Source of the DNA: a phage
NCBI GenBank assembly: GCA_016693855.1
Contig: GCA_016693855.1_4844.1
Reading direction: 5' to 3' (one strand)
DNA: 45,498 bases
The notes under the pieces were generated by a model. The model was not told where the DNA came from. It searched no databases and saw nothing but the letters and a program-made list of their open reading frames with translations. Within the stretch, counting starts at the first letter, position 1. Each line of letters opens with the position of its first letter. Below are positions 11,246 to 45,498 of the stretch, one piece after another. Made by a program: the position numbers and the translations under genes.

Positions 11246-13231
11246 ATGGCTACCACACCAACTAATAAACCAATTCCATCGGAAGATCCGCGCGACCTTA
11301 AGTTTAATGCCGGTAAGATTGACGAGGTAGTGACATCTGATGCGCACTACTATACCGATCGTTTCGGTAAGCGCCGCTGGACTATCGCAGGATTTCAGTA
11401 CACCGCAGAAGAAGCTATCCGTAATTATGGCTACATTACGATGGATAGCTTCGAAGATGGTGCAATACTGACTCTTTCCAATCAGACACTTCGTTATGAA
11501 GCGAACGGGGAATATTATCGCTGGGATGGGGAGTTTCCAAAAATAGTTCCAGCTGGTTCAACTCCAGATAGCACAGGTGAGGTTAAATTAGGGGCTTGGG
11601 TTAGCGTTGGCGATGCATCATTGCTAGCAAGGCTAAAAAGCAATAGTGCTGGTGATGGTGCTTCTCTTGTTACTTTTGAAAGCGGAAATTCTGTTGAAAG
11701 TCTTTCAGATAATGATGGCGCCAAGAACATAGGCAGCGGCGAAAGGAGTTTGCTTGCACGTAACAATGATATTAAGCATTCAGGAGACTTCTCTACTCTG
11801 CAAGCTGCGGTAGATGCATCTTTACCGAAAAATGACTTACTTATTTCCCCTGGTGAATATACTGAAAAAGTTACTATTGGTAACGCACAGTTAAAAGGCG
11901 TTGGCGGGGTCACAGTACTAAAAACTCCGGCAGACTTTACAAACACTGTTCAGGTTAATTTATCGACGCCTCATTGGCAATTCCGCCATAGTAGTGGTTT
12001 TGCTATAGATGGTTCTGGGACAACCGGGAGCGCAGGCATTAGTTTTGACCCGTCAGACCAATATTCTGGCCGACATAATTTTAGTGATTTATACATCCAC
12101 AACATCAACAAGGCCATTCAGAGGCCTTCCGGGAACATCGGCAATACATGGAGAAATATTGGGGTATCTACGTGTGATTGGGGGTATTACGCGATTAGCG
12201 GCTCAGAGATGCATTGCGGTGCTGATACCCTCTACAATATCCACTTCGACGGCATCTCCACCTATGCAGTCTACCTAAACGGCACTGTCGATAACGGTGG
12301 GGTGGGCGCATGGTGGCTTAAAGACTCCATTATTGAGGCTTCCGGAGGCGGCGGGATATACTTAAAAAGCAAATCTGGTGACTGCCCTACATCTCCATGC
12401 GGGGTGTCCAATATATGGATGGAAGCGGTTGCGACATCATCGGCTGTTAATGTAGACGGTGTGGCGCAAAAACCGCGAGTTCTCAAGTTGGTAGACACCG
12501 CGATATTCTTTGCTGAGTATTCGTATCTCAACAACATAGAGTTATCCAACTCCAACTTAGTAACTTATGGTTGCCGTTTCGACAACGCTGATGGTAATCA
12601 GGATATTGTTATTGATGAGCAGAGCACTATTGTAGCCCATGACGTGTATTTAAACGGCAGTTCCGGGAAGGATGTTATTGTAGAGTCTGTTGCATCGCAA
12701 TCTGCAACGATAGCTGCCACAAACTTATCTCTGAGGGGTAACTTAACAAGAGGGAGAGTATTTAACACCCCAACAGGGAATAAATTAATGAGTATCACAT
12801 TTGACTCAGGTAGCCACGAGTTTTCTGGTAGCGCTACAGTTAGCGGCTCAACTGCATCCGACGGGCTTCACGCCGCTACATGTACAGAATTCTCCTTCCC
12901 AGGCGCTGGTTTGTTCGAGATGGTAGCTTCAAGAACGACAATAACATCAGGCAGATGGTATGTTTGGGGCGTCAACTCTCGCCTCCAATCAGGAACAGCA
13001 GATGTGAGTATAACGTCAGGTATTACTATGGGTAGTGTTTACACAAAGACAGGGGAGTGGATTAGCACTTTCGGTGTAGGAAAGGCATCTGCCACTGGCA
13101 CTGTAGCGCTATACGTTTCCACAGGAGGAAGTTCAGGAGCTACGGTCAGATTCAGTGACTTTTTCATAGCGGAATTTACTACGCAAGCGCAAGCTATGTC
13201 TTTCGCCAATTCAAGGATGTCGTTATCATAA
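11246..13231 (+). CDS. tail fiber / tailspike protein
   Basis: 661 aa, last gene of the tail module before a strong terminator; Gly/Asn/Ser-rich repetitive middle portion compatible with a beta-helix; divergent C-terminus expected for a receptor-binding protein. Confidence 0.6.
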   Translation: MATTPTNKPIPSEDPRDLKFNAGKIDEVVTSDAHYYTDRFGKRRWTIAGFQYTAEEAIRNYGYITMDSFEDGAILTLSNQTLRYEANGEYYRWDGEFPKIVPAGSTPDSTGEVKLGAWVSVGDASLLARLKSNSAGDGASLVTFESGNSVESLSDNDGAKNIGSGERSLLARNNDIKHSGDFSTLQAAVDASLPKNDLLISPGEYTEKVTIGNAQLKGVGGVTVLKTPADFTNTVQVNLSTPHWQFRHSSGFAIDGSGTTGSAGISFDPSDQYSGRHNFSDLYIHNINKAIQRPSGNIGNTWRNIGVSTCDWGYYAISGSEMHCGADTLYNIHFDGISTYAVYLNGTVDNGGVGAWWLKDSIIEASGGGGIYLKSKSGDCPTSPCGVSNIWMEAVATSSAVNVDGVAQKPRVLKLVDTAIFFAEYSYLNNIELSNSNLVTYGCRFDNADGNQDIVIDEQSTIVAHDVYLNGSSGKDVIVESVASQSATIAATNLSLRGNLTRGRVFNTPTGNKLMSITFDSGSHEFSGSATVSGSTASDGLHAATCTEFSFPGAGLFEMVASRTTITSGRWYVWGVNSRLQSGTADVSITSGITMGSVYTKTGEWISTFGVGKASATGTVALYVSTGGSSGATVRFSDFFIAEFTTQAQAMSFANSRMSLS

Positions 13232-13772: not shown

Positions 13773-14432
13773 TTAAAATCCTTCAATTGGAGTTGGTTTG
13801 TGTTCGGTTTTTTCTTCCTGCGGTTCTGGCTGTTGATGTTGAGGCTTAGCCAGTTTTGCAGGGTTAAATGATTCGCCTGATACCATGAATTTAGCCTTCA
13901 TTTCTTGATAAGCGCCAACAATAACGCGAGTTGCTGCATCATCACCACGGAACGCCTTGTATTCCTCGCCATAGATTACAGCCAACTCTTCCATGCTGGA
14001 TGCGTTGCGAATCAATGCTACTGCGTCTTTTGGTGATTTGCGCGCAGCATTGCCATCATCATCAGCCTGAGCAATACCAAACATTGCCGCGATGGAATAT
14101 CTGCGTGCATACGTCATTGCGGAGCCATACCCTTGCGCATCCTTCTTAGCTACTGGCATTGGCATCACGGATGACATGTATTCACCAGACTCATGCATTA
14201 TCGTTGTTTCAAGTTTAAGCACATCCATTGAATCGCCATCAATGGCATTCTGGATGATTATAAGACCGTTAGCCTCAAGCGCTGGGCGTATTGCATCGAG
14301 GAATGACTCAAGGTTTGCGTAATTGCTTTTCAGGTGTGGGTTTTTGGCGTTTTTCTTTGCACCACTACTCATCACCTTGCGAGCCTCAACCAGCGCCTTA
14401 ATCAGGTTAGCTTTCTGTTCCGAGAAAATCAT
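13773..14432 (-). CDS. erf: ERF-family single-strand annealing protein
   Basis: 219 aa; conserved segment …YGSAMTYARRYSIAAMFGIAQADDDG… matches the signature region of P22 Erf-type recombinases as I recall it; adjacent to ssb and a nuclease. Confidence 0.8.
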   Translation of the reverse strand: MIFSEQKANLIKALVEARKVMSSGAKKNAKNPHLKSNYANLESFLDAIRPALEANGLIIIQNAIDGDSMDVLKLETTIMHESGEYMSSVMPMPVAKKDAQGYGSAMTYARRYSIAAMFGIAQADDDGNAARKSPKDAVALIRNASSMEELAVIYGEEYKAFRGDDAATRVIVGAYQEMKAKFMVSGESFNPAKLAKPQHQQPEPQEEKTEHKPTPIEGF

Positions 14433-14448
14433 TTCATCACCTCACTAA

Positions 14449-15387
14449 TTATAAATTAAACTGTTTCTTGAACCATTCAGGCGTTTCCATTTCGATTACG
14501 GGATTACCCATTGAATAACCCGGCCATGAATTGGCTTTTTTGCATGCCTTGTAAATTTCCATTGCGCCATTCAACTGAATGCGACCGATGCGTAATTGCT
14601 CTTCAGTCAGGCGAATTAACGCAGTGATAAACGGCGCTTTCTTTTCCTGTACGAGAAGATTCACAGACCGTGGAGCGTGACCGTATGCCGCAACAAACAT
14701 ATCGTGTTGCATAGCCATTTTCATGAAGTACCCAAGCCGCGCAGCATGACGGAAAAACTCTTCAGGCTTGGCGCTTACCGCCGTCTTGTAGTCAATGATG
14801 TCGCCACCTTTTGTCAGGCAATCAAAACGAACCTTTGCTTTTTCTCCGTTAAGTTCACCGAGAATTGACACTTCAGCATAAGCGCCAGCAAGAAGGCTGC
14901 TGTAATAGCTGTTTGCGTGGATTACAGCACGCATTTGCTGAATGGCATCATAATCACCACCTTCCAGCATTTGCTTTCCCGCTGCGGCTTTTTCAGCTTC
15001 TTCACGGATAACATCGTAAATCTTCACTGGCTCGCCAGTTGCACGAATTATTTTGATCACATCAGCTTTCGACTTTCCTGAAAGTCCTTTAATCCCGCGC
15101 TCTTTCGCCCATGAGTTCATGTCACTTACAGTAACAAGCAGATCATCACCAAAATCTTCTTTTGTCGGCATCCGTGCATATTCTGCATCGAAACGCTCAG
15201 GTTCAAGCAGTGCTGTGTGGCTTCCTGTTCCGAAGATAAGTGCTTTTGACTGCTCATCTTCTTCATCTTTGTAGCGCCATGCTGCTGGGCATCTGTCAAG
15301 TATATTCCATAATCCAGAACCATTAATGTGCTCTGTGTCAGCATGATAATCCTGATTGCTTAATTCATTATTGAAATAGACTTTCAT
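14449..15387 (-). CDS. PD-(D/E)xK family nuclease (putative recombination exonuclease)
   Basis: Motif …GGDIIDYKTA… (D-x-hhDhK) typical of PD-(D/E)xK/RecB-like nucleases; located next to Erf. Start taken as ATG at 15387 preceded by GTGAGG RBS (track start 15399 is a GTG). Confidence 0.6.
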   Translation of the reverse strand: MKVYFNNELSNQDYHADTEHINGSGLWNILDRCPAAWRYKDEEDEQSKALIFGTGSHTALLEPERFDAEYARMPTKEDFGDDLLVTVSDMNSWAKERGIKGLSGKSKADVIKIIRATGEPVKIYDVIREEAEKAAAGKQMLEGGDYDAIQQMRAVIHANSYYSSLLAGAYAEVSILGELNGEKAKVRFDCLTKGGDIIDYKTAVSAKPEEFFRHAARLGYFMKMAMQHDMFVAAYGHAPRSVNLLVQEKKAPFITALIRLTEEQLRIGRIQLNGAMEIYKACKKANSWPGYSMGNPVIEMETPEWFKKQFNL

Positions 15388-21601: not shown

Positions 21602-21793
21602 GTCAAATCCTCATTCTGGAATCTGTATATTACTATATAGAAAGCAATGGAGAACTTCAATACCGCTGCTCTTAAATCACAAAGGTAATGGATAGCACAA
21701 ATTGCTAAAATCTATGCTACCTGTTTATTCGTTTCGTGGTATATTTCAGTCATCAACACGCAAGTGCTTGACAGTTAAAAGAAAAATCAAAAA

Positions 21794-22237
21794 TCCCGCC
21801 CAAAAGCCCTGAAAAATGGGGCGAAACATTCCAGATAAAAATCAATAAGTTACAAAATCTTCGCCCATTATCGCCCAAAAGAAGGGCGAAACATTTCTAT
21901 TTAAATTCAACAACTTAAACGATTTTCGCCCATTTTTAAGTTGTGGGGGTATATATGCATTGTGTAAGAGAGAAAAATAGTAGGTATGAAATGAATGTGT
22001 ATAGGGGTATGGGCAAAATGGGCGAAATGTATGATATGAGCGAAAACGAACATAGTTAGTAAGTATGATATATAGGTATGAGTAAATATAAATAACTAAT
22101 AATATTAATAACTTACATATATATATTACTTATTATTACTTATTATCTATAAGAGAAAACCGCTCAAAAAATGAGCAAAATTTTCGCCCACAATTTAGGG
22201 CGAACATAGGGCGAAGATGGGCAAGAGTGGGCGGAAC
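21794..22237. repeat. iteron array (GGGCGAA / TTCGCCC, >10 copies) flanking an AT-rich core; candidate origin / early control region
   Basis: Direct reading: ATGGGGCGAAAC (21816), GGGCGAAAC (21884), GGGCAAAATGGGCGAAATG (22011), GGGCGAACATAGGGCGAAGATGGGCAAGAGTGGGCGGAAC (22198-22237) in forward orientation; TTCGCCCATT (21860), TCGCCCAAAA (21871), TTTTCGCCCATTTT (21924), TTTTCGCCCACAA (22181) in reverse; AT-rich segment ~22050-22160 with tandem TACTTATTAT repeat; no ORF >=60 aa in 21601-22264. Confidence 0.6.
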
Positions 22238-22268
22238 GGCAAAATCATTGCGACACCTGAAAATCACA

Positions 22269-38386: not shown

Positions 38387-40266
<1,880 letters not shown>

Positions 40267-40268
40267 TA

Positions 40269-41342
40269 ATGGAAAAGATTATCTTTACCAAAGATTTGGT
40301 AGCCAACTCCGCAATAGTGGCTGACCAGTGGAAACATCTCACCATCGACCGCAAGGTGTTCTGCAATGCAGAAGCTGAGCTGGCGAAAACTTACGGTGTT
40401 AACGCCACCGCACTGGTAACAAAAGATTACTGGCGCGACGTGGATAACGTCACTACCCGCGTTTTCCGTAACGAGGCTGGTCAGGACATGATGGCTGACC
40501 TGATGGGTATCGCGGCAAACATCAATATCGGTAAGACCGTGGCAATCAGCCGCATTGCTTCCGATGCTGGTAAGGTCGTCCGCACTCTGTCTGGTCAGGA
40601 GCCGGAAGATTTGGATAAAACTCGCTACGATTACACTGGCGATGTGATTCCAATCTTCAAAACTGGCTACAGCCGCGAATGGCGCGAACTGCTGGGTATG
40701 CAGTCAGAAGGTTTTGACCCACTGCTGGACGATCAGGCTAACGTCACCTTTAACCTGCGTTCCGACATGGCGCAGTATCTGCTGACTGGCGACCAGACTC
40801 TGAACGTGAACGGCGTTTACACTGGTTACGGCATCACTAACCACCCGAACACTGTTCAGGTTAACCTGAGCGTTTCCGGTGGCGGCCCGAATATCGACCT
40901 GCAAACCGCAACGCCAGACGAAATCGTGAAATTCTTCAATCAGGATTTCCAGGCTATTCTGGATGCGCAGAACGTATTTGAGCAGGTGACTCTGTGGGTT
41001 TCTCCGGCAGTGCGTCGCAGCTTCATGCGCCCGTATTCTGATGCGGCTGGCTTCAAAGGCGGCACAATTGAGCAGTACATCACGCAGTTCGGCAATGGTC
41101 GCATCGGCAAGATTGGCACAAACTTCCTGCTGACTGGCAACCATTTCGTTGGCTACGTTCGCAACGACATGTACATCCGTCCGCGTGTTGCTCAGCCTGT
41201 TTCCACCTATGCGGCAGCCCGTGACAATCCGCACGATAACTTTAACTTTATGGTGTGGTCAGCTTTCGGTTTGCAAATTCGTAAGGATTTCACCGGCAAG
41301 TCAAAAGTGTTCAACGGCTACGGTACGCAAACTCCGCAGTAA
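40269..41342 (+). CDS. major capsid protein (putative)
   Basis: 357 aa; position after scaffold/decoration genes, followed by a strong terminator; size typical of HK97-fold capsid proteins. Confidence 0.6.
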   Translation: MEKIIFTKDLVANSAIVADQWKHLTIDRKVFCNAEAELAKTYGVNATALVTKDYWRDVDNVTTRVFRNEAGQDMMADLMGIAANINIGKTVAISRIASDAGKVVRTLSGQEPEDLDKTRYDYTGDVIPIFKTGYSREWRELLGMQSEGFDPLLDDQANVTFNLRSDMAQYLLTGDQTLNVNGVYTGYGITNHPNTVQVNLSVSGGGPNIDLQTATPDEIVKFFNQDFQAILDAQNVFEQVTLWVSPAVRRSFMRPYSDAAGFKGGTIEQYITQFGNGRIGKIGTNFLLTGNHFVGYVRNDMYIRPRVAQPVSTYAAARDNPHDNFNFMVWSAFGLQIRKDFTGKSKVFNGYGTQTPQ

Positions 41343-42444: not shown

Positions 42445-42474
42445 AAAGAAAAGCCCCGTGAAGGGGCTTTTTAT
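42445..42474. terminator. bidirectional intrinsic terminator
   Basis: aaaagaaAAGCCCCgtgaaGGGGCTTtttatt between convergent 41624-42442 (+) and 42477-43013 (-). Confidence 0.85.
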
Positions 42475-42476
42475 TG

Positions 42477-43013
42477 CTACAGGCGCATCGGCATAACAAC
42501 AATCTTCGCAGTCTCGCCAGATGGCGCACTAAGGCAGCAAACTGCGGCATTTGTATTTCCATTCAGTTCAAATTTGACACCACAGAATTTTGGATTAAAT
42601 AGCTTGGCGCACTTCTCAACATCAGCAAGGTATTTAGCGTTAAATCCGATTTGCTCAGTTGGCGAAGTCTGTTTTGGTATAACGCGATCAATATCAGGGA
42701 ATCGACCGTCAATAATGTTACAGATACCAGCACCTACCATTAACTCTGTATCATCATGGTACGTGACCATTTTTGTTTTGGTATCCAGCACCGCATAATC
42801 ATAGCGCTTAATTGGCGACTTACTGACTGATACAATGACGCTGTCTGTCAGTTTGTTGTCGTGCTTGCCACCAACAAACATCCTATGCCCATCAGTTGAC
42901 GCAACGCGACCATCTGGCATGAAGCAAATACCGTTCAGATAGTAACGCACATCATTCTTTGCCTGAAACATCAATGCGCCTTCGAGTAATAACTTGCTGA
43001 TTTTTAATTTCAT
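42477..43013 (-). CDS. truncated DNA polymerase III beta sliding-clamp (DnaN) homolog
   Basis: 178 aa from ATG 43013 (AAGGTG RBS). Ordered matches to E. coli DnaN as I recall it: FQAKNDVRYYLNG (DnaN ~150), ASTDGHRMF (~172), DGRFPDIDRVIPK (~240-253), IGFNAKYLADV (~325) and the C-terminal …IVVMPMRL (DnaN ends …YVVMPMRL). Domain I and the first half of domain III are absent. Confidence 0.7.
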   Translation of the reverse strand: MKLKISKLLLEGALMFQAKNDVRYYLNGICFMPDGRVASTDGHRMFVGGKHDNKLTDSVIVSVSKSPIKRYDYAVLDTKTKMVTYHDDTELMVGAGICNIIDGRFPDIDRVIPKQTSPTEQIGFNAKYLADVEKCAKLFNPKFCGVKFELNGNTNAAVCCLSAPSGETAKIVVMPMRL

Positions 43014-43186
43014 CACTTCACCTTAATCATATGTTGTTTTGCAACCTTGAGGCACTCTTCAAAAATGCCACCCTTCTTTGCGCTCTGATTGCGCTTGTAA
43101 TACTGAATTGCCGCATCAATTGCCATCTGGTCGATGTCCGTCAGCTTGGCGCGAAGTTGTTTTTCGATGAATTGTTCTGGTGTCAT
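43013..43186 (-). CDS. hypothetical small protein (57 aa)
   Basis: ATG 43186 with AAGGA RBS; stop overlaps the DnaN-like start (TGATG); below ORF-track size cutoff. Confidence 0.35.
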   Translation of the reverse strand: MTPEQFIEKQLRAKLTDIDQMAIDAAIQYYKRNQSAKKGGIFEECLKVAKQHMIKVK

Positions 43187-43398
43187 TGACTTATCCTTGT
43201 GTCGAATTGAGATTTGTAAAACAAATCAATACTTCCCAATGCTTTGTATTCAAATTTCCCATTCTCGCGGCAAACCCACTTCTCAAACCCATAATTGTCA
43301 TTATTTGCCGTCCATGTTGTCACAGAGAAAAAAACCACTAGCCTGGATTATTGCTCCATTACCATCCCTGTCACCGAACTTTATAATTTTGTAACGCA

Positions 43399-44208
43399 TC
43401 ACATCTTTTCCAGAATTGCCATAACCTCGTGAATATCAGCAACAGGAATCTGGATAAACTCCTCATCCTCTGCCACCACATGACCAGCAGGTAGAATCAC
43501 ATGGTCTGCTGGCTTCAATAACTCGATCAGGCGGTCTACTGGCTTAATCTTTTTCGACTTCAGCACTTTGGCTGTGACCTTGTCCTTGCCTTGTGCTTTG
43601 GCCTCTTCGACTGCCTCGTCGATAACTTTAACCGCATCATCGCCATGTTCACGCGTTACTGCTACGGCATTTGCATAGCTGATTTGTCCTGCACTGATGC
43701 GCGCTTTTACTTCTGCTGGCACATCACCCAGCGACAGGTGCATTTGCACGTCAGATACTGAGCGGCCTACCTTCTTGGCGATTTCTTCATTTGTCCAGCC
43801 AAATCCTTTCAATCGCGTGTAAGCCTTTGCACGCTCAAACGGGTCAAGCTGCTTGCCCTGACTGGATGACACCATGAAGGCGATTTTGTCCGCCTCGTCG
43901 CCAGTGAAATCCTTGCACTCAATGCGAACGATTGGTGCGCCGCGTTCAATGGCTCGTAGTGCACCAAGATAGCGATGCTGACCATCAAGAATGCGGATTC
44001 CTTTGTCGTCAGGGATAACTGTTAATGCTGGCAATGGCTGACCTGATTCCCAGCACTGAGCGAAATATTCAACGTGTTGCTCATCTGCTTCACGGATGTT
44101 ATATCCCGGCTCCAGATAGATTCGCTCCACTGGCACGAGATAGGTTTTGTTAACAGCAATACCGTTGCGCGTTTCTTTGTCTGAATAGATTTTGCTTAGT
44201 GTTTTCAT
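43399..44208 (-). CDS. ParB-like protein (ParB N-terminal nuclease-like domain + HTH)
   Basis: 269 aa; …IRILDGQHRYLGALRA… matches the ParB/Srx-fold arginine-containing box; …FGWTNEEIAKKVGRSVSDVQMHLSL… is HTH-like; no ParA partner in the window. Confidence 0.7.
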   Translation of the reverse strand: MKTLSKIYSDKETRNGIAVNKTYLVPVERIYLEPGYNIREADEQHVEYFAQCWESGQPLPALTVIPDDKGIRILDGQHRYLGALRAIERGAPIVRIECKDFTGDEADKIAFMVSSSQGKQLDPFERAKAYTRLKGFGWTNEEIAKKVGRSVSDVQMHLSLGDVPAEVKARISAGQISYANAVAVTREHGDDAVKVIDEAVEEAKAQGKDKVTAKVLKSKKIKPVDRLIELLKPADHVILPAGHVVAEDEEFIQIPVADIHEVMAILEKM

Positions 44209-44531
44209 TGTTTCTTTCCTAATGCTTTCTTGATAGATTCTTCAGCTAACAGCAATTCTTCTGGGTATTGCTCATTCCAGTTTTGTTTGTATGCCTTGCC
44301 AAGCATTTTTTGCAGAGCTTCAAGCAACTCAGGTGCTGCGGCTATTAACTTTGCATTTGCACGCGTTTCATCAGCCTCTCTGGCATGAACATTTTCATAA
44401 ACAGGTGTTAATACATTTGCCACCTTATATCGATGACCAATAATTGCGCCTCTGATTCTGATGTATGGCTTATCTACTTCTTCTGGTAAAACCTGCCACG
44501 GACCTTTTGTACCTTTGAATTCATCTTTCAT
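44205..44531 (-). CDS. hypothetical protein, paralog of 32607-32891 (FKGTxGPW family)
   Basis: Start taken as ATG 44531 (GAGGTGAG RBS): MKDEFKGTKGPW…LIAAAPELLEALQKML…; first gene of the leftward operon that ends with the DnaN-like gene. Confidence 0.5.
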   Translation of the reverse strand: MKDEFKGTKGPWQVLPEEVDKPYIRIRGAIIGHRYKVANVLTPVYENVHAREADETRANAKLIAAAPELLEALQKMLGKAYKQNWNEQYPEELLLAEESIKKALGKKQ

Positions 44532-44557
44532 ATCACTCACCTCTAACATTTATTGTT

Positions 44558-44618
44558 GTTTCTACGTCACTAACTATAAACGCACCATCAATCTACGTCA
44601 ACAGGAATGTGCTAAAAT
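44558..44618. promoter_or_regulatory. divergent promoter region with TTTCTACGTCA and AATCTACGTCAA motif copies and extended -10 TGCTAAAAT
   Basis: Motif copies at 44558-44570 and 44590-44601; TGCTAAAAT at 44610-44618 ahead of a 39-aa basic ORF (44649-44768). Confidence 0.5.
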
Positions 44619-44767
44619 CATGCTAATCAAACAACAGGAGATTTAAACATGGGTTCAACAAACGGTCCGTCTCGTTCACGCGCTACTGGTAACACAAAAA
44701 CTGGCGGCAAAACCGGCGCAGTGAAGCCAAACGGCTCCACCCGTTCACCATCACGCGGTAAGAAATA

Positions 44768-45208
44768 ATGTTCGGCGCAGATATTGCCATCATGATCATG
44801 TATGTGCTGGGCTTTGCCTGCACGGGCATGGTCGCGTTTTTGGTGTTCATTCCGGCAATGGTGACGTCTGTGTATCTTGGATGGGTGCTTGTTGATTCAT
44901 TTCCCGCCGAATATCTGTATTACCTTGCGCAGTCTATGGTCTGGTTGTTTCCGGCTATTGCACTGCGCAAAAGTACAAAGATGGCGCTCTGCGTGCTGAC
45001 GATGAGCCTTTACGAATGGCTGGTTGCGATAGAGTCATTCGTATGGGAATTTATCACGCCTGTAGAAACGCCGCTTCATGCGCAGTACGCATTTATTATT
45101 ATCGGCATCCATCTGTTCATCCTTTCCATCACTTTTAAATGGGGCGGCGAAATTGGACATTATTCTTGGCGTGGTCGCCATTGTTTTTTCGCTGATTCAA
45201 ATCTATAA
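44768..45208 (+). CDS. polytopic membrane protein (hypothetical)
   Basis: 146 aa with at least 4 hydrophobic segments; no motif recognised. Confidence 0.45.
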   Translation: MFGADIAIMIMYVLGFACTGMVAFLVFIPAMVTSVYLGWVLVDSFPAEYLYYLAQSMVWLFPAIALRKSTKMALCVLTMSLYEWLVAIESFVWEFITPVETPLHAQYAFIIIGIHLFILSITFKWGGEIGHYSWRGRHCFFADSNL

Positions 45209-45240: not shown

Positions 45241-45498
45241 ATGAACGGAGCACTAAGGCAAGTCGCAGAGCAGATTATAAGCGGAACGGCAGGGCAGGTG
45301 ATTGATAAGGCTGGATATGCTTCTATTGGCACTGGCATCGGCCTAAAAGTCGCAGAGCAAACACCTGTCACGCAATCTTATTTTGAGGCTATGATTCCAC
45401 ATAGCCTGACAGAGTGGGCGGCAGTAGCGTCAATCCTCGGCGCTCTGTCTCTGGTAATAAAAAACCTCTTTGAAATGTGGTGGAAGGTACGGGAGTCG
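45241..45498 (+). CDS. hypothetical protein, 3' end outside window (partial)
   Basis: ATG 45241, open to the window end: MNGALRQVAEQIISGTAGQVIDKAGYASIGTGIGLKV…WAAVASILGALSLVIKNLFEMWW…; contains a hydrophobic helix. Confidence 0.3.
   Translation, partial: MNGALRQVAEQIISGTAGQVIDKAGYASIGTGIGLKVAEQTPVTQSYFEAMIPHSLTEWAAVASILGALSLVIKNLFEMWWKVRES

What the first reader, a model, noticed from the sequence alone, without database searches (positions are those of the whole stretch)
43399..44208. Orphan ParB-like protein without ParA and without an obvious parS palindrome
The ORF has a ParB N-terminal box (ILDGQHRYLGALRA) plus an HTH, but no partition ATPase is encoded nearby and no 16-bp palindromic parS-like site is visible in its flanks. 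Orphan ParB-like proteins in phages may act as nucleases, transcriptional silencers or CTP-dependent clamps; the binding target might be the recurrent 12-bp motif or the iteron array, which is pure speculation.
Basis: partly seen in the sequence, partly recalled or inferred. Interest (0 to 1): 0.5.

Follow-up and report, generated by a model that had tools for sequence, protein, structure and literature searches.

The report
Orphan ParB-like DNA-binding protein, lytic phage
A Jersey-like lytic phage carries a well-conserved early gene for a ParB/KorB-type DNA-binding protein with no partition ATPase anywhere in its genome, which makes it a member of the already recognised class of orphan ParB proteins on mobile elements; its DNA target and role are still unknown.

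Summary
ORF 43399-44208(-) encodes a 269-aa protein with a ParB/Srx-fold N-domain, a ParB-type HTH and a small C-terminal domain (AF2 pLDDT 87; best structural matches Spo0J, ParB, Noc, KorB). It matches phrog_1033 over its whole length (E=7e-91). The window is a complete, circularly permuted 45.5-kb genome of a Jersey-like siphovirus and encodes no ParA. The N-terminal ParA-binding peptide is missing, and no parS, Noc-site or KorB-operator sequence is present. Homologs sit in integrated lambdoid prophages, between cII and O or after N, so partition is not the function.

The nucleotide pocket is conserved but atypical: N-x-R, D-G-[Q/H]-H-R and S-S-Q-G replace QPR, GERR and ENLQR. The phosphate-binding Arg is kept; the catalytic Glu and Box III are lost.

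The gene is under strong purifying selection but is dispensable (lost in phage SB28). It lies in an early sigma70-driven accessory cassette whose neighbouring slots are hypervariable.

Most likely it is a ParA-independent, NTP-gated DNA clamp or regulator of the KorB/Noc/VirB/BisD kind. New member of a known kind; modest interest.

The parts
43399..44208 (-). ParB-like protein gene, 269 aa (phrog_1033 family)
   Evidence: ORF. phrog_1033 E=6.7e-91 over residues 1-268. PDB sequence hits: Spo0J 4.7e-13, Myxococcus ParB 1e-9, Noc, KorB. Against Sf11 there are 57 synonymous and 2 non-synonymous codon differences.
43852..44145 (-). N-terminal ParB/Srx-fold nucleotide-binding domain (about residues 22-119)
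44092..44100 (-). Box I-like motif N37-I38-R39 (N and R invariant in the family)
   Evidence: N37 and R39 are invariant in 54/54 sequences, and present in 142 and 140 of 147 distant representatives. HMMER alignments place the motif one residue out of register with Q52-P-R54 of Myxococcus ParB, so structural equivalence is not settled.
43951..43992 (-). Box II, ILDGQHRYLGALRA (residues 73-86): keeps the GxxR P-motif (G76, R79) but has Q77/H78 in place of Glu-Arg
   Evidence: Aligned to GERRYRAAL and GERRWRA of Spo0J and ParB. Position 77 is Q in 29 and H in 25 of 54 sequences, never E. The wider clade reads D-G-[H/Q/E]-[H/C/R]-R.
43855..43869 (-). Box III position, S114-S-S-Q-G118, replacing ENLQR
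   Evidence: Alignment VSSSQGKQL against VENLQREDL. S115, S116 and G118 are each present in 50 of 54 sequences.
43603..43851 (-). ParB/KorB-type helix-turn-helix DNA-binding domain (residues 120-202)
43405..43542 (-). Small C-terminal alpha/beta domain (residues 223-268), possibly for dimerisation; preceded by a conserved G-K-x-K-V-T basic linker
   Evidence: AF2 secondary structure H223-231, E235-239, E249-253, H256-268 with pLDDT 77-86. K210 and T212 are conserved. No Pfam hit. The fold was not assigned separately.
44573..44601 (-). Sigma70-type promoter of the cassette, TTGACG-17-TATAGT; carries the recurrent 14-mer TTGACGTAGATTGA
   Evidence: Promoter scan gives 10 of 12 matches. Motif copies are listed.
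44205..44549 (-). First gene of the cassette, 114 aa, phrog_1273 (unknown function); its stop overlaps the ParB-like start
   Evidence: Found in 9/24, 20/41 and 1/15 related loci, so it is not an obligate partner. It is replaced by an EaC-like gene in phage ST1UNAM.
43183..43399 (-). Hypervariable slot just 3' of the ParB-like gene; here it holds a frameshifted copy of a 72-aa ORF
   Evidence: The window has a T7 run where IME207 has T6 and an intact ORF. Across 81 loci the slot has more than 20 unrelated fillings, including C5 and N6/N4 methyltransferases.
43013..43186 (-). 57-aa protein, phrog_4439 (unknown function); the most constant neighbour within the Jersey-like group
   Evidence: Present in 23/24 and 37/41 loci of the lytic group and 0/15 of the distant group.
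42477..43016 (-). 179-aa beta-sliding-clamp-like protein, last gene of the cassette
   Evidence: phrog_3007 E=9e-61 and phrog_947 'processivity factor' E=3e-13. Weak Pfam DNA_pol3_beta_2 and _3 hits. Co-occurs in 22/24, 23/41 and 1/15 loci.
42449..42471 (-). Intrinsic terminator that closes the cassette (bidirectional hairpin)
   Evidence: Terminator scan; hairpin also seen.

Best explanation
The gene encodes a stand-alone, ParA-independent member of the ParB/Noc/KorB class: an N-terminal nucleotide-binding ParB/Srx-fold domain, a ParB-type HTH and a small C-terminal domain.

**Shown.**
- The fold and the domain order.
- The complete absence of ParA, of the ParA-binding peptide and of known ParB-type operator sequences.
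- Transcription from a consensus-like sigma70 promoter, as part of a five-gene minus-strand cassette embedded between the morphogenesis operons.
- Strong purifying selection on the gene, yet natural loss of the whole cassette in a related phage.
- Delayed-early positions of homologs in integrated lambdoid prophages: between cII and O, often overlapping O by 4 nt, or just after N.

**Inferred.**
- The protein dimerises and binds DNA through the HTH at a site not yet identified.
- It uses its conserved but atypical pocket (N-x-R, D-G-Q/H-H-R, S-S-Q-G) to bind a nucleoside triphosphate, which gates N-domain engagement into a DNA clamp, as in KorB, Noc, VirB and BisD.
- The catalytic Glu of GERR and the ENLQR box are systematically missing. 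Hydrolysis is therefore probably slow or absent, or the nucleotide is not CTP.
- The biological role is an accessory, early-acting control of DNA transactions on the phage genome, either transcriptional regulation or modulation of replication. It is not segregation.

For: **Not partition.**
- No ParA in a complete genome.
- No deviant Walker A in 93 related loci totalling 941 kb.
- The ParA-binding motif is absent from the N-terminal peptide in all 54 sequences.
- Homologs occur in integrase-bearing prophages and in lambdoid early operons.

**Pocket under selection.** N37, R39 and G76 are invariant; D75, H78 and R79 are near-invariant. The GxxR arginine is the residue whose mutation abolishes NTP binding across the fold (PMC12704722; BisD R95A, PMC12409273).

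**Functional gene.** 1137 synonymous against 68 non-synonymous codon differences over 18 comparisons.

**Early expression.** Promoter TTGACG-17-TATAGT.

**Replication-linked contexts.** Phage_rep_O directly downstream in 6 of 15 distant viral loci, and also in Mulock, Serratia and Morganella. A beta-clamp-like gene in 45 of 65 lytic-group loci.

**Precedents for ParA-independent ParB-fold regulators on mobile elements.** KorB, VirB and BisD.
Against: - No DNA target could be found. Known operators are absent, and palindromes are at chance level. No palindrome is shared between lineages. Within the cassette, only a coding-constrained 5-bp-arm near-palindrome is conserved.
- Box III is lost and the Box II Glu is missing, so canonical CTPase chemistry cannot operate. 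Whether any nucleotide binds is untested and cannot be predicted.
- A phage ParB activator is known whose conserved NTP residues are dispensable for its function (PMC13229309).
- The C-terminal domain was not shown to be a dimerisation domain.
- The hypervariable, anti-restriction-flavoured neighbourhood fits an anti-defence role at least as well as a regulatory one.
- The gene is dispensable in SB28.
Confidence: 0.5

Rival explanations
1. Anti-defence or DNA-modification helper. The protein loads on phage DNA early. It either assists DNA-modifying enzymes, as the ParB-methyltransferase fusions, DndB/DpdB and the 5mYOX-activating phage ParBs do, or it shields or marks the genome against host nucleases. 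Regulation of gene expression would not be its main job.
For: - The gene sits in an accessory cassette whose flanking slots are hypervariable among phages with 98-99% identical ParB-like proteins.
- In the lytic-group loci the slot that abuts its 3' end holds a C5 methyltransferase (PF00145; 6 of 81 loci, plus Bas78 and ST1UNAM) or an N6/N4 methyltransferase (PF01555; 3 loci plus VLCpiS13f). The start usually overlaps the ParB-like stop.
- PF01555 is the family known to be fused to ParB folds in phages (PMC12704722).
- VLCpiS13f has an annotated anti-restriction gene in the same cassette. The Pantoea prophage has a Lar restriction-alleviation gene directly downstream.
- The Box II string is literally DGQHR, the signature of DndB-type ParB-fold ATPases, with weak TIGR03187 and PF14072 hits.
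- The cassette is dispensable.
Against: - This genome has no methyltransferase in the cassette, and none is annotated in Sf11.
- Methyltransferases fill the slot in only about 9-13 of 81 loci, against 20 with no insert and many unrelated small ORFs. The adjacency may simply reflect an insertion hotspot.
- The 5mYOX activators lack an HTH, whereas this protein has a full ParB HTH.
- There are no PADLOC hits.
- The DndB and DGQHR models score far below their cut-offs.
Confidence: 0.22
2. An NTP-independent, ordinary HTH transcription factor. The N-domain would serve only as an oligomerisation or partner-binding module, and no clamp would form.
For: - The canonical CTPase residues are missing: the Box II Glu and the whole of Box III.
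- The protein is annotated as a 'putative transcriptional regulator' or 'DNA binding protein' in many records.
- Precedents exist for ParB relatives whose function does not need NTP residues (PMC13229309) or that lack the CTPase fold altogether (ParT).
Against: The pocket residues N37, R39, D75, G76, H78, R79 and S-S-Q-G are invariant or nearly so down to about 30% identity. That is hard to explain without a ligand or catalytic role. The GxxR arginine is retained.
Confidence: 0.15
3. A ParB-like nuclease or nickase that cuts host or competitor DNA, or nicks phage DNA to help replication (Osa, ParB-methylase Bce_0392, DdrB-like ParB type).
For: - The ParB/Srx superfamily includes NTP-regulated DNases (PMC5512222).
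- A conserved Asp-Gly-x-His-Arg could coordinate a metal.
- The Bordetella phage homolog is annotated as a 'ParB-like nuclease domain protein'.
Against: - The best sequence and fold matches are the DNA-binding clamps, not nucleases, and cover N-domain plus HTH together.
- A sequence-specific-type HTH and a C-terminal domain are present, unlike in the solo or polyvalent nuclease versions.
- The DdrB-like versions are late, virion-associated proteins, whereas this gene has an early-type promoter.
- Nuclease activity reported for ParB folds is weak and non-specific.
Confidence: 0.08
4. A true partition or maintenance protein that works with a host or unrecognised ATPase, stabilising the phage genome in a carrier or pseudolysogenic state.
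For: Database labels say 'ParB-like partition protein'. Relatives at about 32% identity occur on 860 plasmid records.
Against: - No ParA in the complete genome or in 941 kb of related loci.
- No ParA-binding peptide and no parS.
- E. coli, Salmonella and Klebsiella have no chromosomal ParABS (PMC12704722).
- Homologs sit in integrated prophages that carry an integrase.
- TIGR00180 scores below its cut-off.
Confidence: 0.03

Closest known systems
KorB of IncP plasmid RK2 (ParB-CTPase-fold sliding clamp and transcriptional repressor; PDB 8qa8, 8qa9, 1r71)
   Different: KorB lies in an operon with IncC (a ParA) and KorA and also serves partition; this genome has no ParA or KorA-like partner. The KorB operator TTTAGCSGCTAAA is not enriched. 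The pocket motifs differ (GQHR and SSSQG). Sequence similarity is weak (E=4e-3 with the single sequence, 1.4e-5 with the profile).
Chromosomal ParB/Spo0J (Thermus 1vz0, Myxococcus 7bnk, Caulobacter 6t1f, Bacillus 6sdk)
   Different: No ParA, no LG[KR]GL peptide and no parS. GERR becomes GQHR and ENLQR becomes SSSQG. TIGR00180 scores below its cut-off and PF02195 is not detected.
Noc, VirB and BisD (orphan or re-purposed ParB-fold CTP switches)
   Different: All three keep a canonical CTP pocket and have identified palindromic sites. Noc has a membrane-targeting helix, and BisD has an extra activator domain plus the partner BisC. None of these features was found here. The Noc binding site is absent.
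DndB/DpdB-type 'DGQHR' ParB-fold ATPases, sulfiredoxin and SerK
   Different: Scores are far below the family cut-offs. The overall architecture (ParB HTH) and the best matches are ParB-type. No dnd or dpd genes are in the genome.
Phage ParB-methyltransferase fusions and 5mYOX-activating phage ParBs
   Same: These are phage-encoded ParB folds without ParA that are linked to DNA modification. In relatives of this phage, a PF01555 or PF00145 methyltransferase abuts the gene.
   Different: Here the genes are separate rather than fused, and this genome has no methyltransferase in the cassette. The 5mYOX ParBs lack the HTH.

Membership tests
ParABS partition ParB (type I / chromosomal) | Cognate ParA (deviant Walker A ATPase) encoded next to parB or elsewhere on the replicon | tested here: not met
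   No K[GS]GxGK[ST] motif in six frames. All ParA-sized ORFs are assigned elsewhere. The window is the complete genome. None found in 93 related loci.
ParABS partition ParB (type I / chromosomal) | N-terminal ParA-interaction peptide [LFI]G[KR]G[LFI] | tested here: not met
   Absent from the N-terminal peptide in all 54 family sequences. The single match lies inside the HTH of one sequence. The motif definition is from PMC12704722.
ParABS partition ParB (type I / chromosomal) | Palindromic parS site(s) on the replicon | tested here: not met
   No match to TGTTNCACGTGAAACA with up to 3 mismatches. Palindromes are at chance level. The only perfect 16-bp palindrome (39532) is not conserved in relatives that carry the gene. 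A divergent, unrecognised site cannot be excluded.
ParABS partition ParB (type I / chromosomal) | Curated family models (TIGR00180; Pfam ParBc PF02195) | tested here: not met
   TIGR00180 scores 39.4 bits against a cut-off of 58.45. PF02195 is not reported at E<=1 and is not precomputed for any of 120 homologs.
ParABS partition ParB (type I / chromosomal) | CTP pocket motifs: Box II GERRxRA and Box III ENLxR | tested here: not met
   The protein has GQHRYLGA and SSSQG instead. Glu is never present at position 77 in 54 sequences. Only G76 and R79 (GxxR) are kept.
ParB-CTPase-fold DNA clamps/regulators independent of ParA (KorB, Noc, VirB, BisD) | ParB/Srx N-domain followed by a ParB-type HTH in one polypeptide | tested here: met
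ParB-CTPase-fold DNA clamps/regulators independent of ParA (KorB, Noc, VirB, BisD) | Conserved GxxR P-motif arginine required for NTP binding | tested here: met
   G76 is invariant. R79 is present in 53/54 sequences and in 142/147 distant representatives.
ParB-CTPase-fold DNA clamps/regulators independent of ParA (KorB, Noc, VirB, BisD) | NTP binding and NTP-dependent N-domain engagement (clamp closure) | not testable with these tools
   Needs biochemistry. The literature states that specificity cannot be predicted from sequence or AlphaFold3.
ParB-CTPase-fold DNA clamps/regulators independent of ParA (KorB, Noc, VirB, BisD) | Specific loading site on the element | tested here: inconclusive
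   Known operators are absent. There is no palindrome shared between lineages or conserved within the cassette beyond coding constraint. The promoter 14-mer and the iterons are rejected by natural controls.
ParB-CTPase-fold DNA clamps/regulators independent of ParA (KorB, Noc, VirB, BisD) | C-terminal dimerisation domain | tested here: inconclusive
   A small alpha/beta domain is predicted at residues 223-268 with pLDDT 77-86. No Pfam hit. Neither the fold nor dimerisation was tested separately.
DndB / DGQHR-domain ParB-fold ATPases | Match to the curated models (TIGR03187, PF14072) and linkage to dnd or dpd genes | tested here: not met
   TIGR03187 scores 16.9 bits against a cut-off of 58.85. 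PF14072 scores 12 bits against 29.1. No dnd or dpd genes are in the genome. Only the five-residue motif is shared.
PHROG phrog_1033 ('ParB-like partition protein') | Full-length profile match | tested here: met
   E=6.7e-91 over residues 1-268 against profile positions 15-294 of 334. The family name is an annotation, not a tested function.

The most novel reading that the evidence does not exclude
The protein represents a large, coherent phage and prophage clade of full-length ParB proteins (N-domain + HTH + C-domain). There are 1,343 clusters at 50% identity with E<=1e-10. The clade's nucleotide pocket has been remodelled to N-x-R / D-G-[H/Q]-[H/C/R]-R / S-S-Q-G, which resembles Srx and DndB rather than GERR/ENLQR. 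Because the clade does not hit Pfam PF02195, surveys based on that domain model may have missed it.

On this reading, the clade would be an ATP- or GTP-using, or hydrolysis-dead, DNA clamp. It would be made early in infection and would load on the phage genome to organise replication, given the recurrent linkage to O initiators and to a beta-clamp-like protein. Alternatively it would protect or mark the DNA against host defences. Either way this would be a new functional class of ParB switch specific to viruses.
Probability: 0.2. Interest if true: 0.6.

Novelty: new member of a known kind. Interest (0 to 1): 0.3.

Why it matters
Orphan ParB-fold proteins on mobile elements are a current topic: KorB, VirB and BisD have been worked out, and a 2025 survey showed the fold is widespread and can bind CTP, ATP or GTP. 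This family is abundant in enterobacterial lytic and temperate phages. It is under strong purifying selection and combines a full ParB architecture with a non-canonical pocket. It also comes with natural controls, namely phages with and without the gene and with different neighbouring cassettes. That makes it a convenient system for two questions: what an NTP-gated DNA clamp does for a virus that never needs segregation, and how pocket remodelling changes nucleotide use. As it stands, though, it is an annotated gene family of unknown function and not a surprise.

Tried and rejected
1. **Known operators as targets.** Canonical parS, the Noc binding site and the KorB operator are absent or at chance level.
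2. **De novo palindromes.** The count equals that of shuffled sequence, and the long ones are terminators.
3. **Perfect 16-bp palindrome GTTGACAGCTGTCAAC (39532-39547).** It is kept in Sf11, degraded in VLCpiS13f and absent from CF-SP1, both of which carry the gene. Rejected.
4. **Recurrent 14-mer TTGACGTAGATTGA as the target.** It is a promoter -35 element plus extension, it is non-palindromic, and it is kept in the ParB-less SB28. Rejected as a ParB-specific site.
5. **Iteron array as the target.** The repeat is absent from Sf11, whose protein is 99.3% identical. Rejected; it is probably the replication origin.
6. **Palindromes shared between loci of distant lineages.** None found.
7. **Near-palindromes conserved in 65 cassette loci.** Only GTGCAAATGCAC was found, inside the HTH-coding part, and coding constraint explains it.
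8. **A specific ParB-methyltransferase gene pair.** The adjacency is real but occurs in a minority of loci, in a slot with more than 20 unrelated fillings. It is treated as context only.
9. **The small ORF in the window as a methyltransferase remnant.** There is no similarity. It is a frameshifted copy of a 72-aa ORF.
10. **Defence-system libraries.** No PADLOC hits for any cassette protein.
11. **Literature on this specific family.** Nothing was found, and the supplement of the 2025 survey has no match to the motif or to these phages.
12. **Plasmid relatives.** Their contexts were uninformative or were prophage insertions.
14. **Box I register.** The register of N37-x-R39 against QPR could not be settled from sequence alignments.
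Full report
**What the window is.** The 45,498-bp window is a Jersey-like virulent siphovirus of enterobacteria. Its closest records are Shigella phage Sf11 (genus Cedarrivervirus), Escherichia phages C1 and swi2, and 'Salmonella' phage IME207, at about 89% nucleotide identity with a mosaic structure. Joining the window's end to its start reconstitutes an intact 94-aa membrane protein, and the junction is colinear with Sf11. The window is therefore a complete, circularly permuted genome. This matters for the finding, because nothing can lie 'just outside the reading'.

**Checking the observation.** ORF 43399-44208(-) is real: ATG start, 269 aa. The quoted string ILDGQHRYLGALRA is residues 73-86. 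Pfam finds HTH_ParB (residues 120-202, E=2.6e-11, above its cut-off) and the KorB domain (137-183). It does not find the ParB N-terminal model PF02195, even at E<=1. TIGR00180 scores 39 bits, below its 58-bit cut-off. PHROGs places the whole protein in phrog_1033, 'ParB-like partition protein' (E=6.7e-91).

**No ParA and no ParA-binding peptide.**
- A six-frame scan finds no deviant Walker A.
- Every ORF of ParA size has another PHROG assignment: tail, Erf, exonuclease VIII, primase, head morphogenesis, HNH, MarR and SSB. Two are of unknown function and lack a Walker A.
- The 82 annotated features of Sf11 include no ParA.
- The published ParA-binding motif [LFI]G[KR]G[LFI] (PMC12704722) is absent from the N-terminal peptide of all 54 aligned family members.
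- No ORF with a deviant Walker A occurs in 93 related loci totalling 941 kb.

**No parS.** Canonical parS, the Noc site and the KorB operator are absent or at chance level. The number of palindromes (74) lies within the shuffled range of 49-75, and the long ones are terminators.

**The pocket is conserved but not canonical.** In alignments to Spo0J and ParB, GERR becomes G76-Q77-H78-R79 and V-E-N-L-Q-R becomes V-S-S-S-Q-G. Within the family down to 37% identity, N37, R39 and G76 are invariant. D75, H78 and R79 are near-invariant. Position 77 is Q (29 of 54) or H (25 of 54) and never Glu, and S-S-Q-G is kept in 50 of 54 sequences.

An exhaustive HMMER search of 1.84 billion representatives finds 1,343 clusters at E<=1e-10. 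In the 147 best of them the signature is N-x-R, D-G-[H 112 / Q 15 / E 13]-[H 87 / C 30 / R 18]-R and [S/T]-S-[S/A]-Q-G.

Residue roles in Myxococcus ParB are R54, R95 and N127 for phosphate, Q52 and E93 for hydrolysis (PMC13229309). By that mapping this clade keeps the GxxR arginine (R79) and probably the Box I arginine. The Box I mapping is uncertain because N-x-R sits one residue out of register with Q-P-R in ungapped alignments. The clade has lost the catalytic Glu and the Box III Asn.

The literal DGQHR string gives only sub-threshold hits to the DndB and DGQHR models. The 2025 survey of the fold reports that Box III is often absent in orphan ParBs and that CTP, ATP or GTP can be bound. 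It also reports that neither sequence nor AlphaFold3 predicts which nucleotide is bound. I therefore make no claim about the nucleotide. That survey's domain-centric search used PF02195, which this family does not hit.

**Gene context in this genome.** The gene is the second of five in a minus-strand cassette embedded between plus-strand morphogenesis operons:
- a consensus-like sigma70 promoter, TTGACG-17-TATAGT (44601-44573);
- a 114-aa protein (phrog_1273);
- the ParB-like gene, whose start overlaps the preceding stop;
- a short variable slot;
- a 57-aa protein (phrog_4439);
- a 179-aa beta-clamp-like protein;
- a terminator at 42471-42449.

**Family context.** I extracted 80 related viral loci.
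- The slot that abuts the 3' end of the ParB-like gene, usually with an ATGA overlap, is hypervariable. It has more than 20 unrelated fillings among phages whose ParB-like proteins are 98-99% identical.
- These fillings include nothing at all (20 loci), a C5 cytosine methyltransferase (PF00145), an N6/N4 methyltransferase (PF01555), an endonuclease VII-containing protein and many small ORFs.
- In this window the slot holds a frameshifted copy of a 72-aa ORF that is intact in IME207.
- The upstream slot varies too: phrog_1273, an EaC-like gene, or an annotated anti-restriction gene plus small ORFs.
- The 57-aa gene (60 of 65 loci) and the clamp-like gene (45 of 65) are the usual companions within the lytic group, but not outside it.
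- Phage SB28 (Macdonaldcampvirus) has lost the cassette. It keeps the promoter and a 41-aa remnant of the ParB-like C-terminus.
- The gene is nevertheless strongly constrained. Against Sf11 there are 57 synonymous and 2 non-synonymous codon differences, and over 18 comparisons at about 91.5% nucleotide identity the totals are 1137 and 68.

**Temperate relatives.** Homologs at 40-50% identity sit in integrated lambdoid prophages and phages.
- In Klebsiella phage Mulock, Morganella and Serratia the order is cI - cro - cII - ParB-like - O - P.
- In Chimaeribacter and a Klebsiella plasmid-borne prophage the gene lies in the pL operon after N.
- In Pantoea it follows the replication genes and sits next to Lar and RusA.
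- Phage_rep_O directly follows the gene, overlapping by 4 nt, in 6 of 15 distant viral loci.

These elements integrate into the chromosome, so they do not need a plasmid-type partition system.

- The recurrent motif is TTGACGTAGATTGA, which is the -35 hexamer plus eight bases of at least four promoters (22286+, 33078-, 35754+, 44588-). It is conserved in 4-5 copies in relatives. It also survives as two exact copies in the ParB-less SB28, so its conservation does not depend on this protein. It is not palindromic.
- The 'iteron array' is a set of eight GGGCGAA/TTCGCCC repeats (21819-22215) flanking an AT-rich core (about 22060-22145) in a 1.2-kb non-coding region. This is classic origin architecture. 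Sf11, whose ParB-like protein is 99.3% identical, has no copies, so the iterons belong to the mosaic replication module.
- A perfect 16-bp palindrome at 39532 is not conserved among phages that carry the gene.
- No palindrome is shared between lineages near the gene.
- The only near-palindrome conserved within the cassette is explained by coding constraint.

The target therefore remains unknown. The BisD case shows that loading sites can lie inside genes and have needed experiments to confirm.

**Interpretation.** Several points are solid. This is a ParA-independent, full-architecture ParB-fold DNA-binding protein. It is expressed from an early-type promoter, it is accessory but strongly selected, and partition is not its function.

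The mechanism I consider most likely (confidence 0.5) is an NTP-gated DNA clamp or regulator of the KorB/Noc/VirB/BisD kind, with slow or absent hydrolysis or a nucleotide other than CTP. It would act on transcription or replication of the phage genome. The recurrent linkage to O initiators and to a clamp-like protein hints at replication.

The rivals, with my confidence in each, are:
- an anti-defence or DNA-modification helper (0.22), supported by the hypervariable, methyltransferase- and anti-restriction-flavoured neighbourhood;
- a plain HTH regulator with a non-nucleotide N-domain (0.15);
- a nuclease or nickase (0.08);
- true partition (0.03).

**Novelty.** Orphan ParB-fold proteins on plasmids, integrative elements and phages are now a recognised class (PMC12704722, PMC11790492, PMC10770331, PMC12409273). 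The loss of Box III in such proteins has already been noted. This gene family is already annotated (phrog_1033), although I found no experimental work on it. I rate it a new member of a known kind, with modest interest. The remodelled pocket together with a canonical HTH, the size of the clade, and the natural controls available in sequenced phages make it a reasonable experimental target.

Noticed in passing
window 45241-45498 joined to 1-27: The window's end and start join into an intact 94-aa membrane protein and are colinear with Sf11 across the junction. The window is therefore a complete, circularly permuted 45,498-bp phage genome.
   Followed up: yes
window 43183-43399 (-), homopolymer at about 43326-43334: The small ORF just downstream of the ParB-like gene is split by a +1 frameshift in a T7 run. 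IME207 (L025) has T6 and an intact 72-aa ORF, at 97% DNA identity. This is either a sequencing error or a recent pseudogene.
   Followed up: yes
window 22286(+), 33078(-), 35754(+), 44588(-); also L001, L011, L012, L013: The 14-mer TTGACGTAGATTGA (the -35 hexamer plus 8 nt) is kept nearly exactly at 4-5 promoters per genome, across phages that are only about 80-90% identical. Two copies remain in SB28. This is far more conservation than a sigma70 -35 box needs, so it is probably the site of an unidentified phage-encoded regulator.
   Followed up: partly
window 21780-22260: Putative replication origin. Eight GGGCGAA/TTCGCCC iterons in both orientations flank an AT-rich core (about 22060-22145) in a 1.2-kb non-coding region next to early genes. 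The iteron sequence is absent from Sf11, which indicates a swapped replication module.
   Followed up: partly
window 42477-43016 (-): The 179-aa protein is labelled 'RusA-like Holliday junction resolvase' in RefSeq through phrog_3007. It instead resembles domains 2-3 of the beta sliding clamp (phrog_947 E=3e-13; weak PF02767 and PF02768 hits). A half-size clamp-like protein that co-occurs with the ParB-like gene is unexplained.
   Followed up: partly
L008 1879-2676, L009 3549-4346, L011 16474-17190; viral loci L014-L093: The position abutting the 3' end of the ParB-like gene is an insertion hotspot. It has more than 20 unrelated fillings, including two unrelated DNA methyltransferase families (PF00145 and PF01555) and an endonuclease VII-containing ORF.
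   Followed up: yes
L012 (SB28) 14409-14943: Phage SB28 has deleted the whole ParB-like/clamp-like cassette. It retains the promoter 14-mer and a 41-aa ORF that is 64% identical to the last 44 residues of the ParB-like protein. This is a natural knockout.
   Followed up: yes
window 11942-11958 and 40848-40864: The exact 17-mer AACACTGTTCAGGTTAA occurs twice, in a tail gene and in the major capsid gene. The second copy overlaps the 12-bp palindrome CAGGTTAACCTG. The 17-mer is not present in Sf11. Unexplained, and possibly chance.
   Followed up: partly
window 44650-44769 (+): A 39-aa, very basic Ser/Gly/Arg/Lys-rich ORF (MGSTNGPSRSRATGNTKTGGKTGAVKPNGSTRSPSRGKK) lies between the divergent promoter region and the lipoprotein gene. 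An ORF of the same size (Bas78_0048) is annotated at the corresponding position in Bas78.
   Followed up: no
plasmid records, e.g. NC_003905.1 (Rts1) 200687-201754: Relatives at about 32% identity occur on 860 plasmid records, 555 of them conjugative. They are annotated as hypothetical proteins. In Rts1 the gene sits in a long same-strand run of small unknown genes with no annotated ParA nearby.
   Followed up: partly
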